DNA from: Hemiscyllium ocellatum
Lineage: Eukaryota
Direction of reading: 5' to 3'
NCBI RefSeq assembly: GCF_020745735.1
Contig: NC_083435.1
Coordinates: 34,533,231-34,597,230 of the forward strand
DNA length: 64,000 bases
The position numbers and the translations under genes are program-made. Each line of letters begins with the position of its first letter. The stretch's first letter is position 1. Of this stretch, positions 4,788-63,165 are shown piece by piece. Under the pieces are notes generated by a model. That model made no database searches and was not told the DNA's origin. It worked only from the letters and a program-made list of their open reading frames with translations.

Positions 4788-5697
4788 TCATCGTATATAT
4801 TCGATAAACATTAGAATTAAAGTCAAACGATACTTCACCATAATCATTAACTCTGTTCTGAATTTTATCTGTGCAACTGCATCAAAAAATGAATTTTTAC
4901 ACGAGCTGCGAAGCTGCAGAATGCACCCAATCTGTTGCATCACGACAAGAGGGTGACTAGTGTTTATAAAAAATGTTGAGCATCGGTGCATTTTACGCAC
5001 ATATAATTAATAATGGCGACCATCCAAAGCAATATAAACTCACCGCTATAGCCACAAGCAAAATGATGCTTTTTCGTCTGTTCTGATCCTCGAAATTATT
5101 TTGATGCTTACCTTTTTTTTCCCTCGCAGGCCCTTGCGAATTCCACTTGCCATTGTTATGTAACTAATTGCCAAAGCATTAACGATAAGCATTGAAAAAA
5201 ATGGTACGAATGGATTTAAAACACTGTCTATCCACGAATATGTCACCCGTGCATGTACAGTATCAAAACATGATTTCAACTTAATGTACCACCATACACC
5301 ATTAACTATTTCCCCTGGTTTAAATTCAAACAATACAAGAATACTTTCTAAAATGCTCAACATACACACTGTTGCACAATTATGGAAGCCACTGTTTCAG
5401 TGCAATATTTTAATCTAAATCTCTGGCAACAAATGGCTACAAATCGACCACAGGTAGAAGAAACAATTAACCAAACAGAACGGTCAATAGCTGCAAAATC
5501 AAGAATGTGCGTTAGGTTGCAAACTCTCTTGAATTTTAGGAAGGAATTTGGGAAATACGTTTCGTTGAGCTCATAAAGTATTACATTGAATATCAGGACA
5601 AGTAGATCTGTTATTGCCATAGATATCATGTGTCGAACGATGCAGGAGGAGAGGCCACACTTTCCATTTGATAGTGTGAAGATCGTCAATAGATTAG
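4788..5697 (-). pseudogene. GPR139-like (class A orphan GPCR) pseudogene, large coding exon 2
   Basis: Acceptor ttctttccacag ends at 5698, then phase-1 (A)NLLTIFTLSNGKCGLSSCIVRHMISMAITDLLV, ...GRFVAICCQRFRLKYCT, ...NRRKSIILL, ...AVAQIKFR. Pieces lie in different frames (ORFs 5357-5689, 5046-5369, 4788-5000), so there are several frameshifts. Colinear with the copy at 62278-63165. Exon 1 not found. Confidence 0.9.
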
Positions 5698-6409
5698 CTG
5701 TGGAAAGAAGAAATCAATCACCTTATTTCTGCACAAATCAAAATTTAGAATGCTGCAAAACTCTTTTTTTTCGAAAAGAGCAATATTGCTGCCTGTTCCT
5801 TTATTTTTAAAAGTTTTGCATCCATTCTTCATGATACAGATAGCAACCTTTGAAATAGTTCTGGAATGTTTGTCAACACGAAATTCCACATATTTCCTTT
5901 GTTTATTCTACTCGCAGATTGGCTTTGTTTAAATAATCATTTCAGTGGAAATATTGAAAGTATTGCAAGTTAAAGTACACCCAAAATTTATTCCGCTTTT
6001 ATTCCTCCACATATTAGGCCAGTACGACTGGTTGCTCACAAATTCTATCAAAAATACGTAAACTGCAAACTGGCATTGAGATGCCTCAGCAACTTAATTT
6101 CAAGTTGTTTTCCATGTTGTTTTAGAAACCTAGTATAACCATCGAGCCTATGCAGGAATTTCAGTATCCACTTTGAAAGTTCCCTCAATAGAGCAAAAGC
6201 TTGCTAAAAAATTGTAGACTATCTGGACTGATGCGAAGTGAATTCCTGATGTATGCAATAATATCTGAATGGACCAGAGAAAATCTTGTCGCATTATAGG
6301 ATGCAGTAAAAAGATAATAAGACAACTATAGTAAAACAGATCAAATACCCTCGGTACATTGCACAAGTAGAATTTTTAAAAATACCTCAATTAAACAGGA
6401 TCTTAATTA

Positions 6410-12839: not shown

Positions 12840-14420
12840 CTTTCATCCTGTCACAAGTTTAACTTTCAAATAGAATGTCTGTAATAATAATCTCCATCTG
12901 AAGAGTCGATCATTTTTAGCCTCTTTTTCCATAAAAAACTTTAACTCTTTACTGACAGTTGATACAATTGTCTCAGACTTCTTACAGCAAATATAAATAT
13001 TGGAATGATAAAATGCAAACACCAAACCCAAAATCGCCTTTCCAATTGTGGAATATTTCAGTTGATTACAATTCAATTTGCTGAAAGAAGAATCCAATCG
13101 GTCTTTTTAATTTCTTCTTGCAAGAGACCAGCAACTTCACCCAAGTCATTTGCAGCAACGACCACATTGAATGGCATTATGTAATTAGGTATGACTAACA
13201 CTGGAACAGTGGCTAACACAGCTTCCAGGCAACAAATGTCTTTGACATTGCTGTGCCTGCTAAGATTTGTGCTCTTCTGCAACAAGTCAGCTAGTGAGCG
13301 GCCACACTTCTAAAATTCGGATAAACCCACACAGTCCCAGGAATCGCAATTTTCTCTTCATCAATGCGATATGATGCTCCATAATAACCTTTATTGTCAA
13401 ATCCTATGGAGTCACTTGTCCATTTTCAATGACAGAACTCGTGACTTGAGTTTTTGTGAACTCACTCTTAGCAAGGTTTAACAACAAGCCTACTTCTCAA
13501 CTCTAATCAATTCCCAAATAATTCACATATGTGCTTCAAATGTTTCTGCCATGAACGACTAAAAATCAGCATATCATCGACGCACACCATGCAGTTAGCT
13601 AAATCGAAATTCACTTTAGTATTTAAATCTTTGAAACGTAGCTGGCTCAGTTTTCCTAACAAATGGCATGACGATAAATTGATGCAGACCATTCGGTATC
13701 AGGAAGGCTGAAATAACCTTTGTTCTTTCAGATAAAGAAACCAGGCCGTATCTTCTGAATAAGTTCATCCTTGAAATCAATGTACCTTGTCGAACTTTCT
13801 AAATAGAGTCATCCAAACATTGAGAAGGATATGAATCAGATTTTGTAATGTCAGTCACTTTGCGATAGTCCACACATGATTAATTGATGTCAGTTGGTTT
13901 CAGCAATTTTATATTGGGTGAGATCCAGTTGCTGCAACTCATTCCGATTATATTGTCTTTGACCATGCAACTAATCTCCTTTTGTACCTGTGCGAATTTT
14001 GGAAGTTTATGTCCATAAACATGTTGCTTATTTGGAACAGCATTTCCTGTATGTCCATCACGCATCATAAGATTTGCACTTCGAAGCTAAATTCAACATA
14101 TATCCCCATTTGATTGTAATACCACTTCCAGGTCCTTTCGATGTTCCTCTGGAAAGTAATCAAATAATCTATGAAATGAGAACTTAATCATTGTCCAATT
14201 ACTCTGAGAGATGTTCAATTTGGAATTATCTGATCTTGGTTCGTCACTCTGTGTTACAACTAATAACAGATTATCTTTTCCTTTCTTCTCCTATTTTAAT
14301 GGAAAATTAACAAATTTAATATTCACAGTGAAATCTGAAAGGGAATGCTTTGCTAAATTTAATACTTTTATGAACTTTGCAAACGCTTTGCTGAATTCTG
14401 CAATCGAGGAGACAGCTCGT
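12840..14420 (-). mobile_element. Ty3/Gypsy LTR-retrotransposon pol remnant (RT-RNase H)
   Basis: Minus-strand fragments: PNKQHVYG (PIKQHPYR-like), CMVCVDDMLIFSRSWQKHL (YxDD region), VLATVPVLVIPNY, YSTIGKAILGLVFAF (RNase H). Heavily frameshifted. Confidence 0.85.
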
Positions 14421-14556
14421 TTTTGCTGAACTTTGCAAACATTCAACCCCAGCCTTGCGAGCAGTCGAATTCAGGAAAAAAAAAGTCAAAGGGAAAAAGA
14501 TAACTGGACCGCGAGAGAGAGAGAGAGCATTGAATAATTTTCCAGTAACGCTAAAA

Positions 14557-15200
14557 ATGTGTCCCAGCAAGTGCAAACAAGAGGGTCCACAGAGGACTTA
14601 GAATGGCCAACAAAAAACACAGTACATGCTAAATATTTATGGCCCAGTGCCTGGAAAGCAGTTAGAATTGTGGATCAAGTAACGTGGTTTTTGGAAGGGA
14701 GGAAGTTTTAGTGAAAGGCAGTTGGAAATTTTCAGGTCGAGGTTGGAGGAGAGAGAGAGAAGGAGAAACGGAAGGGAAAAACGAAACTGTGAATTGGATT
14801 GTTAATAACATGTGGAAGTTGAGGCTGTTATAAGAGAAAGGAAATCTCAAGCAAAAGACAGATCAAATATGTTCACAAACACTAGCACACATGCAGGCCC
14901 GCGCAGAAAACAACTGAACAAAGATGTACAGTGTCTTAAGTCTGTTCCAGATCCTGACTTTGATGACTGCCCTCCGAGACGTACAGCCCCCCTATGAAAT
15001 CCTCCTGGTGAAGATTCCAAGTCAGCAACCGGCGCCTCAGGGTCTGCTGAATCATTGATATCAAGTCATACCTCAAACCAATAGAAGCAAGAAGCCCAAA
15101 ATGGTGATGGCCACACCAAGACGTTAAGGCATCCAGGGCCTGCTTGTGATCTCCCCATGATGGATGATGAGTCAGAGGAGAATATTAGCATACGAATACA
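14557..15200 (+). pseudogene. gag: ERV gag N-terminal (matrix/p12-like) remnant
   Basis: One frame from ATG 14557 reads MCPSK...YMLNIYGPVPGKQLELWIK*RGFWKGGSFSERQLEIFRSRLEE...EVEAVIRERK. This resembles class I/epsilon-like MA, with MG changed to MC at the myristoylation site. A proline/acidic stretch follows. In-frame stops present; no capsid or nucleocapsid seen. Confidence 0.6.
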
Positions 15201-18200
15201 ATGGGTGCATCAGAAGTCGTTGTAGGAGAGCGATATTAGATTAGATTACTTACAGTGTGGAAACAGGCCCTTCGGCCCAACAAGTCCACACCGACCCGCT
15301 GAAGCGTAACCCACCCACACCCCTATATTTATCCCCTACCTAACACTATGGACAATTTAGCATGGCCAATTTACCTGGCCCGCACATCTTTGGAATGTGG
15401 GAGGAAACCGGAGCACCCGGAGGAAACCCACGCAGACACGGGGAGAACGTGCAAACTCCACACAGTCAGTCGCCTGAGGCGGGAATTGAACCCGGGTCTC
15501 TGGCGCTGTGAGGCAGCAGTGCTAGCCACCGTGCCGCCCACTATTCGGCTCCCCTATTGTGCAGAACCAGCAAAACTTGCCAATTCTCATTCTTGTTATC
15601 GAAATTCTGCCCTTGAAATCTGATGGGTCAGAATCTCATACGAAGACTGGGTTTGCATTTGCTCAGTACTCCGATGGGCTTGCAGGTAATTCAAAGTGAA
15701 GATTTACCCGTGCAGGCTGTTACCATGGTCTATGAATGGCGATTAAGCCAGAGAGTGATAGGTTCAGTGAGTAATTCACTCGCTCTGGAAACAAGTAAAC
15801 ATGTTAAACCTATTAACACCGATGGTCTTACTGGGGTCTTGCTGCACTGCACAGCTCATGTACACTGTGATGGTCCTAATGAATCAGATGAGGAGGATTG
15901 GTTCAGAAGATTGGTTAAACCAGATCATTTGTTACATTGCGAATTTTATTGGAGTGATCACACATGTGAAGTCAGTGTAAACTTATCTGAAGTATCTGTA
16001 AAATCAAGTAGACTCTATCATTTTGATGTGGAAGACTCAGCTCTTCACATGCCACTGGGGAAGACGTCCAGTGACAGGTGGCAGGATTTTGGACCATGGG
16101 TGCTAAAGGCTGAGTCTTCTTGGACGATGTGGGCATGTGGTTCAATGCAGTTATGTGGACATATAGGAGGAAACTAAATTGGCAAACTCAGGCAGATAGG
16201 ATGGTCCAGGTCACCTGCGATAGCCCTAAAAAGCCTAGGAGAGTAGCCTGGCGTTTTCCATGATAGAAGTCTCGGACCCAAGATTAAAACGGCTCCTACT
16301 GAGGTGTCGACAAAAGGCAAACATGATGTAGGGATCATACGAGGATGTGAACCCATAAGAGTAACCATGAAGTCTGGGTATCATCCTTGCAGAGCACAAT
16401 ACCCATTAAAACCCGACGCCATAGAAGGAATTACTCCAGTCTTTGAATCCTTCTTAAAGGCTGGAGTGATAATCCCCTGTGAGAGCTCACTGGTGAGAAC
16501 CCCCATTTTACTGGTTACAAAGGCAAACCTTCCCAGTGCACCGGAGGAATGGAGGTTTGTTCACGACCTGCAGGCAGTCAATAACGCTTTTGCCCCATAC
16601 GCCCCAAATTTTCCCAACCCCTAGACGATATTAGTTCAAATTCCACTGGACAGTAAATTGTTCATTGTTGTGCAATTAGCAATTGCCCTCTTTCGTGCAC
16701 CTGTGCACCCAGATAGTCAATTCTGTTTCCCTTTTTCATTCAAAGGAAAATCATATACGTTCACGCGACTTTATCAAGGTTACTGGGAGTCCCCCACCAT
16801 ATGTCATGAGGCTTTACGCAGAAGTGTGGCGTCTTCTGTTCTAACCCCGGGGTCAGAGCTTCTGTTGTATATACATAATTTTTTTGATGGCGGCACCAAC
16901 AAAGGAACAATGTGAGAATGATATCCTTGCATTGCTCTGCCATCTAGCAAGGGAAGGGCACAAAGCTAGTCTCGCATAGCTACAATTTGTGCAACAACGG
17001 GTGAAGTTCTTAGGTCACTTAACATCTGAGCAAGGGAAGGCCACTGGTCAAGACAGAGTTCAAACAATCCAGCAAATTCCAAACCCTCACCCAAAAAAAC
17101 AATCACTATATTTTTTGGGCATGTGCTGCGACTGCAGAATGTTTATCCCACGTTACAGGTTTATCCTTGAACCTCCCCTAAGTGACATAGCCCATGGCAA
17201 AGTTTTGCCGAACCGCAGTCTGTTGCAGTGGACGACAGGGGCCGAAAGTGCCTTTGTTGAACTAAAAAAGGCTCTTCAAACTACAACTTCACTGGGGGTT
17301 CCAAATCCAAACAAGCCTTTTGTACAAATGGTAGATGAGAAGCGTGGCTGCACGACATCTGTATTATTGCAGGATCATGGGGGAAGATTGAGGCCAGTCG
17401 CATATTTTTCAGCTAAACTAGACCCCGTAGCGGCAGGATTGCCTAAATGTCTGTGAGCAGTGGCCGCGGCTGCAAAGGCTGTTGTAGTATCCAGAGTTAT
17501 AGCCGGCTATGGTGAATTAATCCTTCTGGTCCCACATGCAGCATCCTTACTGTTTTCCGAGAAAAGAACAGCACACATGTCAACAGCAAGTTGGCTCAGA
17601 TATAATACTGTGCTCTTGGGGATGTATAACTTTACAATAAAGCGATGTAACGTCCTAAATCCTGCTAGCTTGCTCCCCAAAGAAGGAGACAGGGACCCAC
17701 ATGTTTGTGTCCCAGCAACGAATGAAATTTGCAGCCCTCGACAAGATTTACAGGATTCACCACTTCAGAATCCAGATATGGAGTTTTTTGTGGATGGGTC
17801 AGCATTCAGGAGCAAGGAAACGGGCTAGAATTGCTTTGGGTATGCTGCAGTGACTACCTACGACATAGTCAAAGCGGGATCACTCCCTTCTCATCTGTCA
17901 GGGCAAGCAGCAGAGCTGATTTCCTTGACGTAGACATGCAAATTAGGTGTGGGAAAGACACTGAATAGTTACACCAATAGCAGATATTAATTGGGGTTAG
18001 ACAGGATTTTGTAAACCTGTGGAAACACAAGGGCTTCTTTACCGACACTTGAAAGCCCATTACACACCGTGGCCTGATTTCTGACCTCCTGGAAGCCGTT
18101 CTATTGCCCAAGTCAATCGTTGTGTATAAATGAGAAGCCCACACAAAAAATAATGATTTTATTTCCCAAGGCAATGCAAAGGCAGACTCAGCAGCAAGAA

Positions 18201-19390
18201 CGGCAGTCCAGCATCCGCCAAGTGAGAAGATTAACATGTGTATGACAATTGTTGTACCCCAGCAGCAGACATACGAGAGTTACAGTCACAGGCCAAACCA
18301 GAAGAAAAGCGTGAGTGGACAAAAGCAGGATGCAGTGCGAGGGAGGGAGTATGGTGTGGCTCCAATGGTAAACCCTCTCTACAACGATCATTATTTCCAT
18401 TCTATGGCAAACTGACACACGGTAAGGACCATGTGTCAAAAGTTTTGGGGGGTGGGGAGTGTACAACATTCTTTCAGCACACTGGTACAGTAAGGGATTT
18501 ACTGATTATTCCCAGACATATTGTCGGTGTTGTGTAATTTGTGACACTAATAATTTGGGGAGGGGAATACACTTGAATCAGGCAGCACACCCCCAACCCC
18601 AAACACCTTTTGAACATTTACAGATAGATTTCATTGAACTAACGCCCAACGAAGGGAAAAGGTATTGTCTGGCAACATTTGATATATTTTCCAAATGGTT
18701 GGAAGTGTTTCGTCTACACAGGATGCCAATGCAGTAGCCAAAGCTTTGCTTACTGAAATAATTCCGACATGGGGCATCCCTGACAGGCTGAGAAGTGACA
18801 ATGGGGCACCATTTGCCAATACAGCTTTACAACCGATCAATGATTATTTGGGAATACATATGAGAAAACACTATGCGTACCACCCAGCGAGCGATGTGGC
18901 AGTGGAAAGAAAAAATGCTCCGCTAAAAAAAATCACAAAAAGTTGTGAGGAACGAGGGGTGACATGGACAAAGTTTCTTCTAATCGTGCTAATGTTTATC
19001 AGATCTAGGATGAGAGGCAGAGCTAACCATACCCCATTAGAGATTTTGTTTCGTAGACCACCCAACACAAGAATTGGCCCAAGACCTAAGGTAAGACAGC
19101 TAACAAGCCACTGTGAGGATGAGATGTTATGTTACTGTATAAGACTCTATAGATTTTTATCTCAAATACAGAATCAAGTGAAAACAACACTACCCCAGCC
19201 AGCAAGACGGAAAATTCATGATCTAGAACCTGGAGACTGGATAGTGGTGAAAAAATTCAGGAGGAATACCTGGAAGGTGAAGAGATGGCTTGGACCGTTG
19301 CAAGTGCTCCTTGAAATACAGACAACTGTTAAAATCGCAGAAAGAGCCACGTAGATACACACCAGTCATTGCAAGCGTGTAGCTGGGCCT
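15200..19390 (+). pseudogene. pol: ERV pol (PR - putative 2H insert - RT - RNase H - IN), fragmented
   Basis: PR C-half: TMGAS...ERYSAPL...FLLSKFCP*NLMGQNL. RT: QYPLKPDAIEGI, WRFVHDLQAVN, YTFTRLYQGYWESP; YxDD decayed to YIHN (16868-16879). RNase H: FFVDGS, QAAELISL. IN: QIDFIEL, RSDNGAPF, YHPAS..VERKN, PGDWIVVK, RWLGP. Confidence 0.93.
15238..15541 (-). mobile_element. HE1-type tRNA-derived SINE, full length, inserted in the ERV protease
   Basis: tRNA-like head with A/B-box-like motifs, HE1 body and (TAATC)n tail. TATT flanks at 15234-15237 and 15542-15545. Confidence 0.92.
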
Positions 19391-20454
19391 GAGGAGACAT
19401 CAGACAGTATATGTCTGCTCAGTACTCCTTGCATTGAGGCATCTGGATTAGTGTAATGAGTCAATCCTGCTGGATTAAGAATAAACCTCATTTATTTGCT
19501 CTTGCTAATGAATGAGTCAAGTCGATATAATTCCCACGACACAAGTGCTCAATATTGCTTTACGTATGTTTGGATCTTCATTACATACAGCCAGTGGCTG
19601 ACAGTCTCTCCGCCCTGAAATAGCTCAGCTTTACCATAGGAAAATTCACATGAATGGCACATTTCACTAATTGGACTCAGTCTACCAAAATTCAGTACAG
19701 AAAGACTGCCTTTTGCACATTTTTTTGAATAGGAAAATGCAGAGACGAATTGTACAGCCCCAAAGTTTATTAGTTAGCAGTTGAATCTTTTCATTGAGTG
19801 TTGAGTAACAGTAAAAGACAAACAAAAGCAAACCCGAGTACAAATTGTCTTTATCAAACTGATTGCAGCTATAATACCAAAGCTGAAGTCCATGTAATGG
19901 ATCTTAAAAATCAATTGTTCCATTAAAATTGCTGATACAATATACATTATTTTTAAAGTAAATAATGGAGATTTCAGAACATTTACAGCAAAGCGATGTG
20001 AACAGAAATTGAAGTTAAAAACATAGAACCTCTCTCCACCCAAGCACTGATCCCAGTATCTCAGGATGAGGATGGGGTGCAGAGAGAGGAGTTAGTCACA
20101 CTGTGTCAGCTGTACATTAAACATCTGTTTTTACAGGTCATTTCAACATGATTAAAAAATTACAGTGTGCAAGTCTCAAACATTTCATGAGATTACCCTC
20201 AAACAAAAGTCAATGAGAAGCAATCTATATGATGATCTGTGGCCATATTGGAAATTTTGAAGCATTTTGGAGCTGTTTAATCCACGACATCACTTCATTC
20301 TTTCTGGTCACGTCCACATTTAACTTACAGCTGTATTCCGACCTGGAATAGAGAGTTTAAGTTAGAAAGCAGAGAACCCACTTTCATGTACACAGTGCAT
20401 AGAAATTACTGAAGTGCCCAGGCAAACTGCAAATCTGACAGATAGCAATGCCAA

Positions 20455-24786: not shown

Positions 24787-25069
24787 ACCAGTGCACGCTC
24801 TTGACTTCATTCAGGCTGCTGTGTTGCACACGACAGGTGCATTTCTCCCTCGGACAGTTGCTGGTACTGAAGGATATCCTCCACCTGATAGTTCGAGTCA
24901 CCATCTGATAACAGGACAGTGTTGATGACACCACCAGGAATTGGTACTCTATTTTTCAGCCCTGTGACTTTGATCTGGGGAGGGTAAAAACCAGTGACAT
25001 GACATGAGAGCAGAGCTGACTGTGCAGAATGCTGAGATGCTTTAGGTCGGAGAGTGACTGTCGGTTCAA
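24787..25069 (-). pseudogene. MHC IIbeta beta2 (Ig C1-set) exon
   Basis: tttctttctgttccag | (V)EPTVTLRPKASQHSAQSALLSCHVTGFYPPQIKVTGLKN...LLSDGDSNYQV. Removing one nt near 24852 restores SGEKCTCRVQHSSLNEVKSVHW T|gtaag. The exon is 283 nt versus the canonical 282. Two conserved Trp are lost (GGG, TCG), and the final T plus the next exon's AA would splice to TAA. Confidence 0.93.
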
Positions 25070-25959
25070 CTGGAACAGAAAGAAAGCTCATAACAAAAGC
25101 ACAGGGCAAGTTCAAATGTTTTCAGTTTGTGTTTGACTTTCCCATCCTCATTTGTAATCCCTGAATAACATTAATTGGATCTGTTAAATCCTGTTGAATG
25201 CCTATGTTCGGCCTAGCCTTCATTCAGGTGACCAAAATTAATATATGCTTTGGAAATTGTGAAATTGCAACATAAACACAATACTTGAAAACAACATCCA
25301 TATATCCCCGATTGATCCACAGTAAGATATAGTCTCACTCATAATAGCTCGAACTCTCCAGAAACCCTAGTGTAACCTGCTAGTCAGACTAGGTGACAGC
25401 TCAAGCAGTGCGAAGAGACAATGTTGGATATTAAATGCAGTAACTTCTAAATTATGCTGAGCAAGTTCCAGGCAAACAGCATAATGTACAGCATCAGCAC
25501 GGAATACCTATTATTGAGTGACAAGCATCACTATTTAGAAAAGAGCAAGGTTAGATTTAACTTTAAAATTTAAGCAATTTCATTAATCAACCTGTTTGGA
25601 CACTTTGGTACAAACCTTGGAGGTGGGGCTTAAACCTGGGCTTCAATGCAGTCGAAACACTAAAACGAGCAGAGCAGGAATATTTGTCTTACAGTGACCA
25701 CCATGTGATCAAAGTGCGATATTGTATTTAAACGAGCAAAATATGAAATTCTCAAGGTCTTAGTTTTAGGACAGGGTGGCTGCGGTTAAATAAGATTAAG
25801 TGTGCTCACTGTAATTGGGTAAAAACAGTAACTGTGTAAAATATAGAAAGTGGGAAGTGTTGATAATGTTGAACCCGTTTATGCATCCAAAGTGGGGAAG
25901 AGACATCAATTGCCTAAAGATCACAGACACTAAAGTAAGAAATAAAATAAATACAAAGT

Positions 25960-48399: not shown

Positions 48400-49780
48400 T
48401 ATTGTTCCTCTCTAGTACCCTTGAGAAGGTTATGGTGCCCTGCCTTCTTGAACTGCTGCAGGCTATGTGCAGTTGGTTGACCCTCAATGTCCTTACTGAG
48501 AGAATTCTAGGATTTTGTCCCAGTGACACTAAAGGAACAGCGATATATTTTCAAGTTAGGATGGCGGGTGGTTCTGAAGGGAACTTGCAGGTGGTGGTGT
48601 TCACAAGTACTTGCTGTCCTTGCCCTTCTAGATGGAAGTGATTGTGTGTTTGGAAGGTGCTGTCTGAGGATCTTTAGTAAATTTCTGCAGTACGTCTTGT
48701 AGATGGTACACACTGTTGCGACTGAGCAACAGAGGTGAAGGGTTTGGATGTCTGTGGATATAGTGGCAATGAAGCAGGCTGCTTTTTCCTGAATGTGTCA
48801 GGTTTCTTGAGTGTTGTTGGAGATGTACTTATCCAGGCAAACGGAGAGTATTCCATCACACTCCTGACTTGTGCATTTTCGATGGTGGACAGGTGTTTAG
48901 CGTTTCAGGAGGTGGGTTACTCACTGCAGCATTCAGAGCCGCTGTAGCCAATGTGTTTATGTGGTGAGTTCAGTTGAGTTTCTAGTCTATGGTAACTCCC
49001 AGGATATTGACAGTGGGGAATTCAGTGATGGTAGCACAATCAAGGGTCAGTGATTAGATTGTCTGTTGTTAGTGAGGATCATAGCCTGGCATTTGTGTGG
49101 CTTGAATGTTACTTGCCACATGTCATCCCAAGCTAGTCAGAGTTGCGAACATTTAATAATCATCAGTAAACATCCCCACCTCTGACCATGTGATGGAAAG
49201 TCATTGATGAAGCAGCTGAAGATGGTTGGGCCTATGATGAACTCCCAAGGAACTCCTGCTGTGATGCCCTCCAGCTGACATAAGTCACTTCCACTTTCTG
49301 TTTATTCTGCTTGGCAGCAAGTAGTCCTGTTTGGAAGCTTCACCAGGTTGACCCCTCACAATTAGATATGCGTGGTGCTGTTCCTGGCATGCCCATCTTC
49401 ACTCCCCATTGAACCAGGTTGATCCCCTGATTTGATTGTAATCATTGACTGGAGGATATGCTTCGCCATCAAATTACAGGTTGTGTTGGACTGAGATCTG
49501 CTCTGATGATGCACCACTACACTTCATGGATGCCCAGTTTTGAGTTGCTAGATCTGTTTAAAGTCTGCCCCATTTATCACAGTGATAGTGCCACAAACAC
49601 AATGAAGATAATAATCATGAAGTCAACATAAAGACAGACCTTTGTCTTCACAAAGGCTGTGCGATGGTCACGCTTATAGATACTGTCATGGACAGATGTA
49701 TCTGCAACTGGCGGATTGGAAAGGATAACGTTAAGTATGTTTTTCCCTCTTGTTGGTCCCCCGCACCCCGCGCCCACATG
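48400..49780 (-). mobile_element. Jockey/L2-group LINE fragment
   Basis: VMEYSPFAWISTSPTTLKKPDT... CTIYKTYC C-terminal RT-adjacent motifs; endonuclease-side sequence near 49500-49750. Confidence 0.7.
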
Positions 49781-51545
49781 TCAGCATTTCACAGCGTAAT
49801 AACCGTGCTTTGATGCCAAGTCCAATGTTAATTTCAGGATCACTTCACAGTTAATGTTGTTACATTTTGGTTATACAAATATTTCCAGAAGTAGCATCAT
49901 GACCAAAGGGGGAATAATGTAATTATGCGCCAACAAAGCACCGAGGGAAGACTTTCTGCCACTACGCACACTCCGATTTTATCTATACCATCTGAACTTC
50001 ACTGAATTTAACTAAGATCAGGCAATGTTAGATATTAATGCAAATAGACAGAAAATTACCAGATGATAGTTGTGTCTGAGATGATTTCCAAAATGAAGTA
50101 CGGAAGTACGGTGATAGTTCAACTGAGCTACGAATTTGCCTCCACCAAATGCATGCAATCATATTGATTTCATAGGTATAAATTGCATTCGAGATTTTGG
50201 AGTTATTGCAGTTTTTGTGGCCCAACAAATATTACTCATTTCTGTTCAACTCCTGCCAATCGACTCGCTGTACACGGAAGATGGATTCATGAAGCAACTG
50301 AACAGGTTTTTTTCTCCATCTCGTCTGCTCAAAATTGATAATCAATTTGTAAATCGCTCAAGACTTCTATGATGGGGTGGGGATTCAGGGAAAAACACTT
50401 AGTGATGAGTGAAATCCCACTTGCTATTCGAGTTTCAGGTTGGCAACTGATCTCGGCTTGCCAGTTGTGTATTAAATTCCTTCAGTAAATTACAGACATC
50501 AGCATCATTATATAGTGTCTTGTGTCTGGGTGTTTCCAGAAATCTGGAATAGCAATCGAATTGACTATCCTCCCAAAGTTGTCAGCGGTACAGTTGAACA
50601 GGTGGAATAACCAAGGATAAAAGATCAGAAATGAGCACACCGATGGTTAAAATTCTGGTAGGATGTAGACTCAGAATGTAAAATGAATAGAGTGCTTACA
50701 GGTGAACAACATATTCCTTCCTCTCTACACGATCCATGCCACTCAATTATATACATCATAATGATTTCCACTTCAGTCTGCATTGGTCCCAAGAATAGAT
50801 CCCCGTCTATACAAGCTCTCTTCATTAATATAACCCAGGCAATGTGCAGGTAAATCTCCTCCGCACAGTGTCTAATGAAATGAACACCACCACCCCTCCC
50901 CCCGCCAGACCCACCCCCATCCCCCCCCTACCCCCCACCACCAGATTCCCTCCTGGAAATGTCAATTCTGTAACTGCACACCATATTCTGGCTCGGATCT
51001 AGTCGACATTTTATGCAATGACAGCTGTAAAGCTCTGTGCCTGAGTTGACAAAGGAATATGAGCAACAAACGGTTCTCAGCCTCTTCATGCGACGGCCCC
51101 ACGAATTTGTGGAATAAGTGGACATATATGCCAATATTCCTCTTATCCTGGTTGTCTCTCAGCGAGCTGCTGTTCCTCATGTGTTCTGTTCCTTTTATTT
51201 GTCCTGCCAAAGTATAAGTTAAACAGTAGGTGCCGAACACTGATCACTGCTGAATCCCAAAAGGCGTCCAACATTACCCCCTGTACTCTGCAAATTCTGG
51301 ATTATTTAGGGTAATTACCTTTGATATCATGGAAGTGATCACTATCAGACTCCAATGCGGAATTGTTATCAAACGTTTTGCTGAAGTCCAGTTAGATTGC
51401 ATCAAATTAACATCCAATCAGAAATGCAAACAATCCTTCTTGGTCTATGACAAATATTTGAAGAATGGCTTCTATCCCACTGTTATAAGAGTTCTGATTG
51501 GACCTCTCAAAATTTAATTTTAATGTCGATCTCACTCTTTTTGTA
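49780..51545 (+). repeat. Segmental duplicate A of 58065-59815
   Basis: Colinear similarity from gtcagcatttcacag to tgttataagagttctga...; includes an old CR1 (-) at ~50500-51500. Confidence 0.9.
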
Positions 51546-58064: not shown

Positions 58065-59815
58065 GTCAGCATTTCACAGTGTAATAACCGGTCTTTGATA
58101 CCGAGTCCAACGTTAATTTCAGGTTAACTTCACAGTTTATGTTGTTGCATTTTGTTTTTATAAATATTTCCAGATGTTGCAAACTGACTAAAGGGGGAAT
58201 AATGTTGTTATATGCCAACAAGGCATCGAGGGATGATTTTCTGCCGCTTAGCACATTCTAACTTTAACTATACTATTTGAATATCACTGAGTTTAACAAC
58301 GATCAGGCAAGTTCGACTTTGATCCAAACCTACAGAAAATCACCAGATGAGAGTTATATCTGAGATGATGATAGTTAAACTGAGCTACGAATTTGTCTCC
58401 ACCAAATGTATACAATCATATTTTTTTCATAGGTATAAATGACATTCGGAATTTTGAAACTTTTGTGGCCCAACATGTATAATTCTTTTCTGCTCAAATC
58501 CTGGCAGTGGACTTGCCGTTCACAGAGGATGGATTCATGAGGCGACTGAATAGGCTTGATCTCCATCTCGTCTGTTCAAATGTTGAGAATCAATTTGCAA
58601 ATCGCCCAAGAAATCTATGATTGGTTGGGAATTCTGGGAGAAACACTTAGCAATGAGCGAGATCTCTCTCAGTACTGGAGTTTCAAGTTAGCAACTTATC
58701 CAGTCTTGCCAGTTGTGTATTAGATTCATCCAGTAAATTAGAGAGAATGACATCGTTATTTAGTGTTTTGCGTCTGGGTGTTTCCGGAAATCTGGAATAA
58801 CAATCGAATTGACTATCCTCTCAAAGGTCACCAGTGGTACAGTTGAATGGGTGGAATAACCATGGAGAAACGATCAGAAATGAACACAACAATAGTCTAA
58901 ATGCTGCAAGGATGTAGGCACAGAATGTAAAATGAATAGAATCCTTACACGAGACGAACACATTCCTTCCTCCATACACGATCCATGTCACTTAATTTAT
59001 ATGTCATAACGATTTTCACTTCAGTCTGCATTGCTCCGAAGAACAGAACCTCTCATATCCAGTCTCTCTCCATACATATAACCCAGGCAATGGACAGGTA
59101 AATCTCCTCGGCGCACTGTCTATTGCAACCAAGCTCCACTCCCACACACCCACACACCACACACCCCTCCGCCCACACCCCCACTTCCTGGAAGAGTCGA
59201 TTCAGGATTTGCACACCATATTCTAGCTCCGGTCTAGTCAGCATTTCATGCAGTTACAGCATAACCTCTCGACTCTTAAAATCCCTGCCTGAGCTGATAA
59301 AGGAATATGTCCCATATGCGTTCTCAACCACTTCAAGTGACTGCCCCACGAACTTGAGGGACAAGTGGACATTTATGCTGATGTTCATCTGATCCAGGTG
59401 GCTTCTCAGGGTACTGCAGTTCCTCGTGTGTTCTGTTCCATTGTTTGTCCTGCCAAAATATATGTTAAAGAGTAGGTTCCTAAGAGTGATTAATGCTGAA
59501 TCCCACTGGATACAGACTTTGAATCAGAAAAAAATAGCCTTCCAACATTACCCCCTGTACTCTGCACTTTGGGAGTCATTTACGGTAATTACCTTTGACA
59601 TCATTGCACTGATCACGAGCAGACTCCAATGCGGAATTTTATTAAAAGCTTTGCTGAAGTCCAGTTAGATTGCATCAAATTAACTTCCACGCAGAAATAC
59701 ACAAAGCCATTCTTGGGTCTTCGGCAAATATTTGAAGAATGGCTTCTTTCCCACTGTTATAAGAGTTCTGAATGAACCTCTCAAATTTTCAATTTAGTGT
59801 TCATCTCGCTCTTTT
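58065..59815 (+). repeat. Segmental duplicate B of 49780-51545 (intronic)
   Basis: Colinear with copy A, including the old CR1 (-) and a C-rich tract. Confidence 0.9.
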
Positions 59816-61710: not shown

Positions 61711-62277
61711 TCATTCTTCCCTGCGGTGCAGCCAATTCGACGTTGTTTACTGAGGAATATAACGGTCACAGAGAGTGGTCTTCATTACAGCCAACTCTTG
61801 GCTCATTTTCCCGCTCTTATTTTACTGCTGAATAAATTCTTACCATAGTTATCACATGGCAGCCAATACATGAATTCCTTTTCAGATTCATTTTCCTTTC
61901 AGCGTTCCAGTCGATCTAAAGAAACATGGCAATAAACAAAATGCACAATTTCTGAAGGTTTTGGAACAATATGTCATAGTGTTTTAACATTTAAATAAGT
62001 CATTTTCTTTGAATTTAGAAGGATTCTTTTCATTTCTGCTAGAAATATTCTCCCCAGACCATTCTAAAGTTGTACCTGATGTTATACTATTAATAAAAAA
62101 AAGTCGTATTAAACATTGTTGAAATTCACCTCTTCTATAGCCAATATATCCACACCATCCAATTATGAGTGGAAAATAATGATGTGTTTAATTCTTTAGA
62201 AGAAAACAATTGATGAGATAGGTGCGGATGAGATTTTTAAACACGTTTTATAATTAGTTTTCCATTTTTTCTTTCAG

Positions 62278-63165
62278 CTAATATATTATCAATTGTAATA
62301 TTTACCCGTGGAAATTGCGGCCTCTCCAAATGTATCACACATTACCTGGCGTCAATGGCAATAGCGGATCTCCTCGTTTTAATATTTGAAGTGATTATGC
62401 ATATGCTTAAAGAAATCTATTTTCCGAAATCGTTTCTGGATTACACTTCTGTTTGTCGTCTTACTTTTGCCTTCTCTTTTTTGTGCGTTGATTGTTCTGT
62501 TTGGTTAACAGTTGCTTTCAGCTTTGATCGCTCTGTATCTATCTGCTGCCAAAAGCTGAGAGTCAAATACTGCACAGAGAAAACTTCAGCTGTGGTTATA
62601 GCCATTGTCTGTGGACTTTGTGCTGCAAAAAAACTTGCCAGTTTACTTTGTAAACCAACCTGGAATTATAATTGACAACGTGGCATGGTTCTGTGTTATG
62701 AAGTCTGATTTATATATTTTACCAGTTTGGAAGGCTTACTTGTACTTTGATACTATTTTAACCCCATTTGCTGCGTTTTTCTTTATTTCTGTGTTCAATG
62801 CTCTGACTATCAGGCACATTTTAACGAGTAGTAAAGTAAGGAGAAGCTTTCGGGAAAAAGTCAAAGATTCTGAGTTAGAAAAACGCAGGAAGTCTGTCAC
62901 ATTACTGCTTGCTATTTCTGGAAGTTTTATTTTTCTGTGGATGTTAATTCCTATCTGTTATATCTATGTAGAATTTACAGAGAACCAATTTTACCAAACG
63001 GATTATAATGACCCTTTCACTATCATGGAACACACTGGATATATGCTTCAGCTTTTGAGTTCCTGCACCAACACGTTTATTTCTGCAGTGGCACAGACTA
63101 AGTTCAGAAACGAAGTAAAGAATGTGATTACATGTCAAAATAATCAGAAGATACAAAAATGGTAA
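62278..63165 (+). CDS. GPR139-like GPCR, coding exon 2 (single +1 frameshift in A7 at 62627-62633)
   Basis: tttttctttcag | (A)NILSIVIFTRGNCGLSKCITHYLASMAIADLLV...FSFDRSVSICC...; after removing one A, LCAAKNLPVYF...RRKSVTLLLAISGSFIFLW...CTNTFISAVAQTKFR...KW*. Spliced and corrected CDS is 957 nt, 318 aa, with 7 hydrophobic segments. Confidence 0.88.

What the first reader, a model, noticed from the sequence alone, without database searches (positions are those of the whole stretch)
15700..16180. Candidate 2H-phosphoesterase module between protease and RT in a shark epsilon-like ERV
Seen: about 150 or more extra codons lie between the protease end (NLMGQNLIRRLGL) and the RT start (KGKHDVG...QYPLK). 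They are still largely open (ORF 15623-16177). The segment holds LHCTA (His codon at 15845) and, 67 aa later, SALHMPLGK (His codon at 16046); two single-base reversions (CTT>CCT, CCA>TCA) give SAPHMSLGK. Established: 2H phosphoesterases (LigT/AKAP7/CNPase fold) use two Hx[T/S] motifs, have been detected in some retroviral polyproteins, and the coronavirus ns2 and rotavirus VP3 versions cleave 2-5A to block OAS-RNase L. Inference: this ERV lineage carried an RNA-processing or innate-immune-antagonist enzyme inside Pol. The second motif looks decayed in this copy.
Basis: partly seen in the sequence, partly recalled or inferred. Interest (0 to 1): 0.75.

Follow-up and report, generated by a model that had tools for sequence, protein, structure and literature searches.

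The report
CNPase-like enzyme domain inside retroviral Pol
A broken fossil retrovirus carries, between its protease and reverse transcriptase, an extra domain predicted to fold like the host enzyme CNPase; such domains are already reported in fish retroviruses, and in the active virus it likely opened cyclic-phosphate ends on RNA or small nucleotides, which is untested.

Summary
About 220 codons separate protease and RT. Other genomic copies keep both motifs (His in 38 of 40 and 33 of 39 aligned non-redundant copies), and 26 of 28 RT-selected loci carry the domain. An AlphaFold model of a natural sister copy (pLDDT 92) matches vertebrate CNPase best (Z 14.5, next 9.5; MHV ns2 7.5, rotavirus VP3 6.2-6.5), then walleye retrovirus polyproteins. 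The window's copy is dead: second motif H-M-P, a frameshift near 16,105, protease active site deleted, a SINE in the protease. 2H/CNPase domains in fish retroviruses are already in print (read through secondary citations), and this scan noted the same domain in five findings in other genomes. The 2-5A-antagonist idea is weakened: six named ray-finned-fish relatives keep both motifs, although that lineage lost OAS-RNase L. Best guess: an accessory 2',3'-cyclic-phosphate phosphodiesterase with a remodelled base pocket. One addition: both motifs were lost together about five times among distant relatives. I found no functional test. New member of a known kind.

The parts
14473..15176 (+). Proviral sequence upstream of the protease (gag side, decayed)
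   Evidence: blastn matches to the upstream flanks of L009, L010, L017, L021, L029; no Pfam hit for two ORFs here
15176..15194 (+). Junction of an internal deletion; the protease active-site (DTG) region present in other copies is absent here
   Evidence: L009 flank matches up to 15176; L008 and L012 match 15194-15237 and resume at ~15544-15553; a DTG motif is found in 11 of 28 other loci
15234..15543 (.). SINE-like repeat inserted in the protease
   Evidence: repeat families D4/D11 with copies at ~8.0 kb and ~47.5 kb; flanks continuous in L008 and L012
15544..15655 (+). C-terminal part of the aspartic protease, broken by a stop
   Evidence: tblastn with polyproteins; RVP match in sister copies
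15720..16215 (+). CNPase-like 2H phosphodiesterase domain; in frame to about 16105, out of frame after
15845..15853 (+). First catalytic motif H-C-T, intact
   Evidence: the host CNP exon reads LHCTTKF
16046..16054 (+). Second catalytic motif position; reads H-M-P here, so it does not meet H-x-S/T
16313..18226 (+). Reverse transcriptase and RNase H, with stops and frameshifts
18265..19393 (+). Integrase (H2C2, rve, MLVIN_C), frameshifted

Best explanation
This is a dead copy of a Pol-embedded domain that is predicted to fold like vertebrate CNPase and that, in the active retrovirus, likely hydrolysed 2',3'-cyclic phosphates on RNA ends or small nucleotides to 2'-phosphate/3'-OH products as an accessory enzyme. 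Shown: position between protease and RT, family-wide presence, two conserved H-x-T/S motifs, and decay of this copy. Predicted: CNPase-type 2H fold with the loop and helix after motif 2. Inferred: ancient capture of an intronless CNP-like catalytic domain; release from Gag-Pol by the viral protease and carriage in the virion; substrate and benefit (cleaning up nuclease-cut RNA or tRNA ends, or removing 2',3'-cyclic nucleotides). It is likely dispensable, because several related lineages lost both motifs.
For: Fold: AF2 model of natural copy L012 on a 62-row alignment, mean pLDDT 92.3, pTM 0.88. VIA-align: mouse CNPase 2xmi Z 14.5 (rmsd 3.4, 162 aligned), next 9.5; the top 21 rows are all 2H-fold entries. 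Foldseek: all but one of the PDB rows shown are CNPase/RICH. Best viral hits: Q2VF30 (unnamed, E 1e-7), WEHV1 and WDSV polyproteins (E 2e-6, 7e-6). Motifs: His in 38 of 40 and T/S in 37 of 39; His in 33 of 39 and Ser in 35 of 39 aligned non-redundant copies. In the set chosen by RT alone: 17 of 19, 17 of 18, 13 of 18, 16 of 18. Host CNP reads LHCTTKF and RAHITL with Gly at His+15; the viral family has Gly at +15 in 37 of 40 genomic copies and 41 of 47 homologues. The model has a loop and then helix 123-135 after the motif-2 strand, matching the beta5-alpha7 element that PMC4643303 calls unique to CNPase. Position: 24 of 39 scanned homologues carry RVP and/or RVT_1, 6 carry both.
Against: No activity was measured. 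CNPase substrate-binding residues are not kept: the Phe235 position is V/I/L in 45 of 50 homologue rows (F235L cuts kcat/KM from 1.70 to 0.06); Arg307 and Val321 positions vary; a near-invariant Trp (46 of 49) and a His at motif 1 +4 are new. So the substrate may differ. Sequence likeness to the host CNP exon is not significant (hhalign prob 0.5%, E 0.13; 11-16% identity in structural alignments). Purifying selection is weak once bias is corrected: dN/dS 0.76 (0.59-0.99) for the domain against 0.80 (0.65-0.98) for RT, with a shifted-frame control at 0.89 (0.69-1.12). Only 25 of 46 fully covered homologues keep both motifs. The model is of a sister copy, not of the window's own sequence.
Confidence: 0.5

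Rival explanations
1. The domain is an immune antagonist that degrades a cyclic dinucleotide (2',3'-cGAMP), like phage Acb1 and avian poxvirus PDEs, damping sensing of reverse-transcribed DNA.
For: The same fold does this in other viruses (PMC11410667 passages). The base pocket is remodelled relative to CNPase. Repeated loss in lineages fits an accessory conflict gene. cGAS-STING in fish is recalled, not tested.
Against: Acb1 Z 7.7 and penguinpox PDE Z 5.2, against 14.5 for CNPase. [quoted passage not shown] Pol-level expression is low for a cytosolic sink (inference).
Confidence: 0.2
2. The main role is non-catalytic: an RNA/nucleotide-binding module or a decoy for host CNP, which is listed as binding HIV-1 Gag MA and blocking particle assembly.
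For: Host CNP restricts HIV-1 assembly (table row and citation in PMC7471995; primary paper not held). Loss of the motif-1 His goes with Pro at motif 2 +2 (7 of 11 against 4 of 33, Fisher p 0.002, not corrected for kinship). 'Both lost' needs 5 changes on the tree, at least 4 forced, and diverged clades share the altered motifs while keeping W/G fold residues.
Against: Most lineages, including this family, keep both catalytic motifs. Many homologues come from unnamed assemblies and may be decayed ERVs. The domain lacks CNP's N-terminal domain and C-terminal membrane tail.
Confidence: 0.15
3. The domain is a 2',5'-phosphodiesterase that destroys 2-5A to block OAS-RNase L, like coronavirus ns2 and rotavirus VP3.
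For: Same superfamily. The host genome has OAS genes (11 exon matches on C59 and C2), and a cartilaginous fish has a working OAS-RNase L pair (PMC10400998).
Against: Six of six named ray-finned-fish clusters (Takifugu, Labrus, Cyclopterus, Sphaeramia, Metynnis, Paramisgurnus) keep both motifs, yet OAS-RNase L was lost in the ancestor of ray-finned fishes. ns2, VP3 and AKAP18 score Z 6.2-7.5. The two clear PF06479 hits in this genome are IRE1; RNase L was not found, which is inconclusive.
Confidence: 0.07
4. The domain is a captured passenger kept only as a folded spacer between protease and RT.
For: Weak corrected dN/dS signal; motif loss in several lineages.
Against: His/Thr/Ser motifs survive across relatives that are only 24-47% identical; a spacer would not keep a catalytic site.
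Confidence: 0.08

Closest known systems
2H/CNPase domains of fish retroviruses (WDSV, WEHV, teleost epsilon-like ERVs); Mazumder 2002 as cited in PMC9503650 and Basta 2009 as cited in PMC4977317 (primary papers not held)
   Same: 2H fold in a class I fish retrovirus; WEHV1 and WDSV polyproteins are top structural hits; teleost ERV proteins carry the same domain between RVP and RVT_1
   Different: This family is a large, decayed group (438 candidates, 150 scored) in a host that has OAS genes. The exact position of the domain in the primary papers could not be read.
Vertebrate CNPase / goldfish RICH catalytic domain (PDB 2xmi, 1woj, 2i3e; Pfam PF05881)
   Same: Best structural match, Z 14.5; LHCT first motif; His-to-Gly +15 spacing; loop and helix after motif 2
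   Different: About 15% identity; 174 against about 215 residues; motif spacing 57-69 in most viral homologues; Phe235, Arg307 and Val321 positions not kept; no PNK-like domain, no introns; not detected by the Pfam CNPase model
Viral 2',5'-PDEs (MHV ns2 4z5v, rotavirus VP3 4rpt) and AKAP7/18
   Same: 2H superfamily, two H-x-T/S motifs, virus-encoded
   Different: Z 6.2-7.5 only; different branch; homologues persist in hosts without OAS-RNase L
Acb1 and avian poxvirus cGAMP PDEs (7t27, 9bkq)
   Same: 2H fold used by viruses against nucleotide signals
   Different: Z 7.7 and 5.2; stand-alone proteins, not polyprotein domains

Membership tests
2H phosphoesterase superfamily | Two H-x-T/S motifs (virus family) | tested here: met
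2H phosphoesterase superfamily | Two H-x-T/S motifs in this window's own copy | tested here: not met
   second motif reads H-M-P; decayed copy
2H phosphoesterase superfamily | Bilobed 2H fold with the motifs on strands | tested here: met
   pLDDT 92 model, His45 on strand 45-52 and His112 on strand 112-118; top 21 VIA rows are 2H proteins; predicted, on a sister copy
2H phosphoesterase superfamily | His-dependent phosphodiester hydrolysis | not testable with these tools
   needs an assay
CNPase branch | Closest fold is CNPase | tested here: met
   Z 14.5 against 9.5; Foldseek list
CNPase branch | beta5-alpha7 loop and helix after motif 2 | tested here: met
   loop 119-122 and helix 123-135; Gly at +15 in host and virus; by spacing and DSSP, not by atom-level superposition
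CNPase branch | Substrate-binding Phe235, Arg307, Val321 | tested here: not met
   V/I/L, variable and variable at these offsets; the host gene has F, R, V; roles
CNPase branch | Sequence match to PF05881 | tested here: not met
   no hit for 17 family members or 39 homologues; weak tRNA_lig_CPD hits in 2 of 39, RICH at E 1.3
CNPase branch | 2',3'-cyclic phosphate to 2'-phosphate activity | not testable with these tools
   needs an assay
Viral 2',5'-PDE (ns2/VP3/AKAP7 type) | Closest structural kin are ns2/VP3/AKAP7 | tested here: not met
   listed, but 7 Z units below CNPase
Viral 2',5'-PDE (ns2/VP3/AKAP7 type) | Host range tied to OAS-RNase L | tested here: inconclusive
   OAS present in this genome, RNase L not found; teleost homologues intact without the pathway
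Class I (gamma/epsilon-like) ERV | PR-RT-RNase H-IN order with MLV-type integrase C-terminus | tested here: met
Class I (gamma/epsilon-like) ERV | RT phylogeny with epsilonretroviruses | not tested
   no reference RT set was fetched; only structural hits to walleye viruses

The most novel reading that the evidence does not exclude
Fish and shark retroviruses package a captured CNPase inside Pol whose pocket was rebuilt (Trp/His in place of Phe/Arg/Val) to destroy a nucleotide immune messenger such as cGAMP: the first retroviral second-messenger nuclease, switched off again in several lineages by parallel changes in both motifs.
Probability: 0.2. Interest if true: 0.75.

Novelty: new member of a known kind. 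Interest (0 to 1): 0.33.

Why it matters
Retroviral Pol rarely carries extra enzymes. A CNPase-type domain kept across teleost and other fish retroviruses, for which I found no functional test in ten literature searches, is an easy biochemical target. Its substrate would show which RNA-damage or nucleotide-signal pressure acted on these viruses, and may bear on the unknown physiological substrate of host CNPase and on CNP's antiretroviral role. The existence of the domain is not new, and this copy is a dead fossil.

Tried and rejected
Pfam and PDB sequence searches of the window ORF and of the 17-row family alignment gave nothing relevant. A word-indexed search for longer homologues found none of 273 candidates; the full HMMER search then found 76. 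The first structure prediction on 17 close rows failed (pLDDT 36) and was not used. hhalign against one host CNP exon aligned only the second motif, not significantly. Naive dN/dS 0.48 was rejected as biased by ascertainment and transitions; corrected values are 0.76-0.80. A sub-lineage with Gln at motif 2 inside this genome was rejected: the four Gln copies are scattered on a star-like tree and use two codons. Co-option was not supported: the longest open frame among the 150 listed matches was 379 aa (only the best candidates were scored). RNase L was not located in the host; inconclusive. Mazumder 2002, Basta 2009 and Wilson 2012 were not held, so their content, figures and supplements are unseen. 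No complex prediction or read mapping was run.

Full report
Observation. The ORF 15617-16177 is open for 186 codons, with His codons at 15845 and 16046, 67 residues apart. It lies in a class I retroviral pol: RT/RNase H, integrase core and an MLV-type integrase C-terminus follow. About 220 codons separate the protease end from the KGKHDVG stretch at 16313. The ORF alone has no Pfam family and no meaningful PDB sequence hit.

State of this copy. It is dead. The protease active-site region found in other copies is deleted, and a SINE-like repeat sits at 15234-15543. The second motif reads H-M-P, and a frameshifting deletion near 16,105 puts the last ~20 codons of the ORF out of frame with the family. 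RT and integrase carry further stops and frameshifts. A 98% identical duplicate lies about 389 kb away.

Family in the genome. A search with residues 15800-16120 gave 438 candidates; 150 were scored and all matched. Of the 29 other top loci, 27 read HC[TS]; of 28 that align at motif 2, 23 read H-x-S. To avoid choosing on the domain, I took the 28 best non-self RT loci: 26 carry the domain upstream. Across 43 non-redundant copies (<95% identity, window excluded, gapped rows dropped), the counts are His 38 of 40, T/S 37 of 39, His 33 of 39 and Ser 35 of 39. The tree is star-like (terminal branches sum to 3.34, internal to 0.22) and motif losses are scattered: a burst of insertion followed by independent decay. 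Pairwise dN/dS was 0.48 naively. With transition bias and ascertainment corrected it was 0.76 (0.59-0.99) for the domain and 0.80 (0.65-0.98) for RT, with shifted-frame controls of 0.89-1.38. So the domain was constrained about as much as RT, but the signal is weak.

Relatives elsewhere. A profile search of 1.84 billion representatives gave 76 hits at E<=0.001. Of 39 scanned, 24 carry RVP and/or RVT_1 and 6 carry both around the domain; 2 have weak tRNA_lig_CPD hits. Of ten clusters looked up, six carry names, all ray-finned fish, and all six keep both motifs. A second look-up, chosen for altered motifs, named two more teleosts. Of 46 rows covering both motifs, 25 keep both, 9 have lost both, and 12 have lost one. 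'Both lost' needs five changes on an ML tree built with the motif residues masked, at least four of them forced. These may be pseudo-enzyme lineages or decayed ERVs.

Fold. Prediction on 17 close rows failed. On 62 rows, with natural copy L012 first, it gave pLDDT 92.3 and pTM 0.88. VIA-align over 48,161 chains ranked mouse CNPase first (Z 14.5, rmsd 3.4, 162 aligned), then other 2H proteins: 9.5, 8.7, 8.6; Acb1 7.7; MHV ns2 7.5; AKAP18 7.1; VP3 6.2-6.5; penguinpox PDE 5.2. Foldseek agreed. In the viral library the best hits were Q2VF30 (no name given) and WEHV1 and WDSV polyproteins, labelled 'Envelope polyprotein' in the table, a label I doubt. The host's own CNP gene reads LHCTTKF and RAHITL with Gly at His+15; the viral family has the same first motif and the same Gly spacing. 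The model has the loop-plus-helix after motif 2 that PMC4643303 (passages read) calls unique to CNPase. The offsets of Phe235, Arg307 and Val321 are not kept, while a Trp at +11 is (46 of 49). So it works like a CNPase in fold and catalytic core, but fails the CNPase substrate-pocket and Pfam tests.

Mechanism. Most likely (0.5) an accessory 2',3'-cyclic-phosphate phosphodiesterase, made as part of Gag-Pol and, by inference, cut out by the protease and carried in the particle. CNPase is related to tRNA-healing CPDases (PMC5434554, abstract and outline only), which fits clean-up of nuclease-cut RNA ends. Rivals: cGAMP degradation (0.2); a non-catalytic RNA-binding or anti-CNP decoy role (0.15; CNP-Gag binding seen only as a table row in PMC7471995); passenger (0.08); 2-5A degradation (0.07). 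The last is weak because ray-finned fish lost OAS and RNase L (PMC10400998 passages), yet their retroviruses keep the motifs. This host has OAS genes. RNase L was not found, and the two clear hits were IRE1, which is inconclusive.

Prior knowledge. PMC9503650 (passages) states that 2H domains occur in fish retroviruses including WDSV, citing Mazumder 2002. PMC4977317 (passages) states that some ray-finned-fish epsilon-like ERVs encode CNPase, citing Basta 2009. Neither primary paper was held. PMC4422223 on elephant-shark ERVs (first 10,000 of 14,366 characters) does not mention the domain. PMC8406329 has no occurrence of CNPase or retrovirus; PMC11410667 has none of retrovirus or CNP. PMC3185748 passages added nothing on it. 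Five earlier notes of this scan on other genomes report the same domain; they were read after my tests and are not counted as evidence.

Verdict. Real, well supported as a CNPase-branch 2H domain, already known as a kind, function untested, and this copy non-functional. Novelty: new member of a known kind. Interest 0.33.

Noticed in passing
P0001-P0076 (alignment A2): Among distant retroviral homologues, loss of the first His (to Q/Y/C/L) co-occurs with Pro at +2 of the second motif (7 of 11 against 4 of 33); both motifs were lost together about five times on the tree. Possible recurrent pseudo-enzyme.
   Followed up: partly
L002 (G000:C113, about 389 kb from the window): A 98% identical duplicate of at least 3.2 kb of this provirus, including the SINE: a recent segmental duplication.
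   Followed up: partly
L041, L049: Two of 28 RT-selected copies have no alignable 2H domain upstream of RT; deletion or truncation not resolved.
   Followed up: partly
L024: Copy in which the domain runs, in frame, straight into the RT connection/RNase H region through an internal deletion.
   Followed up: no
window 24807-25121 (-): Ig C1-set domain exon (E 3e-12), MHC-like by recall, looks decayed.
   Followed up: partly
window 62241-63165 (+) and 5357-5713 (-): Rhodopsin-family 7TM receptor fragments split over several frames, probably pseudogenes.
   Followed up: partly
window 12843-13106 (-): RT-RNase H fragment of a second, opposite-strand LTR retroelement next to the provirus.
   Followed up: partly
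window 49780-51541 and 58065-59815: Degenerate direct repeat, 74-87% identical, spaced about 8.25 kb.
   Followed up: no
P0071: A 587-aa protein joining a zinc knuckle, this 2H domain and Ig V/C domains; probably a gene-prediction chimera, not checked.
   Followed up: no
G000:C59 18.29-18.36 Mb and C2 58.01 Mb: A cluster of about three OAS-family genes plus one more locus in the host.
   Followed up: no
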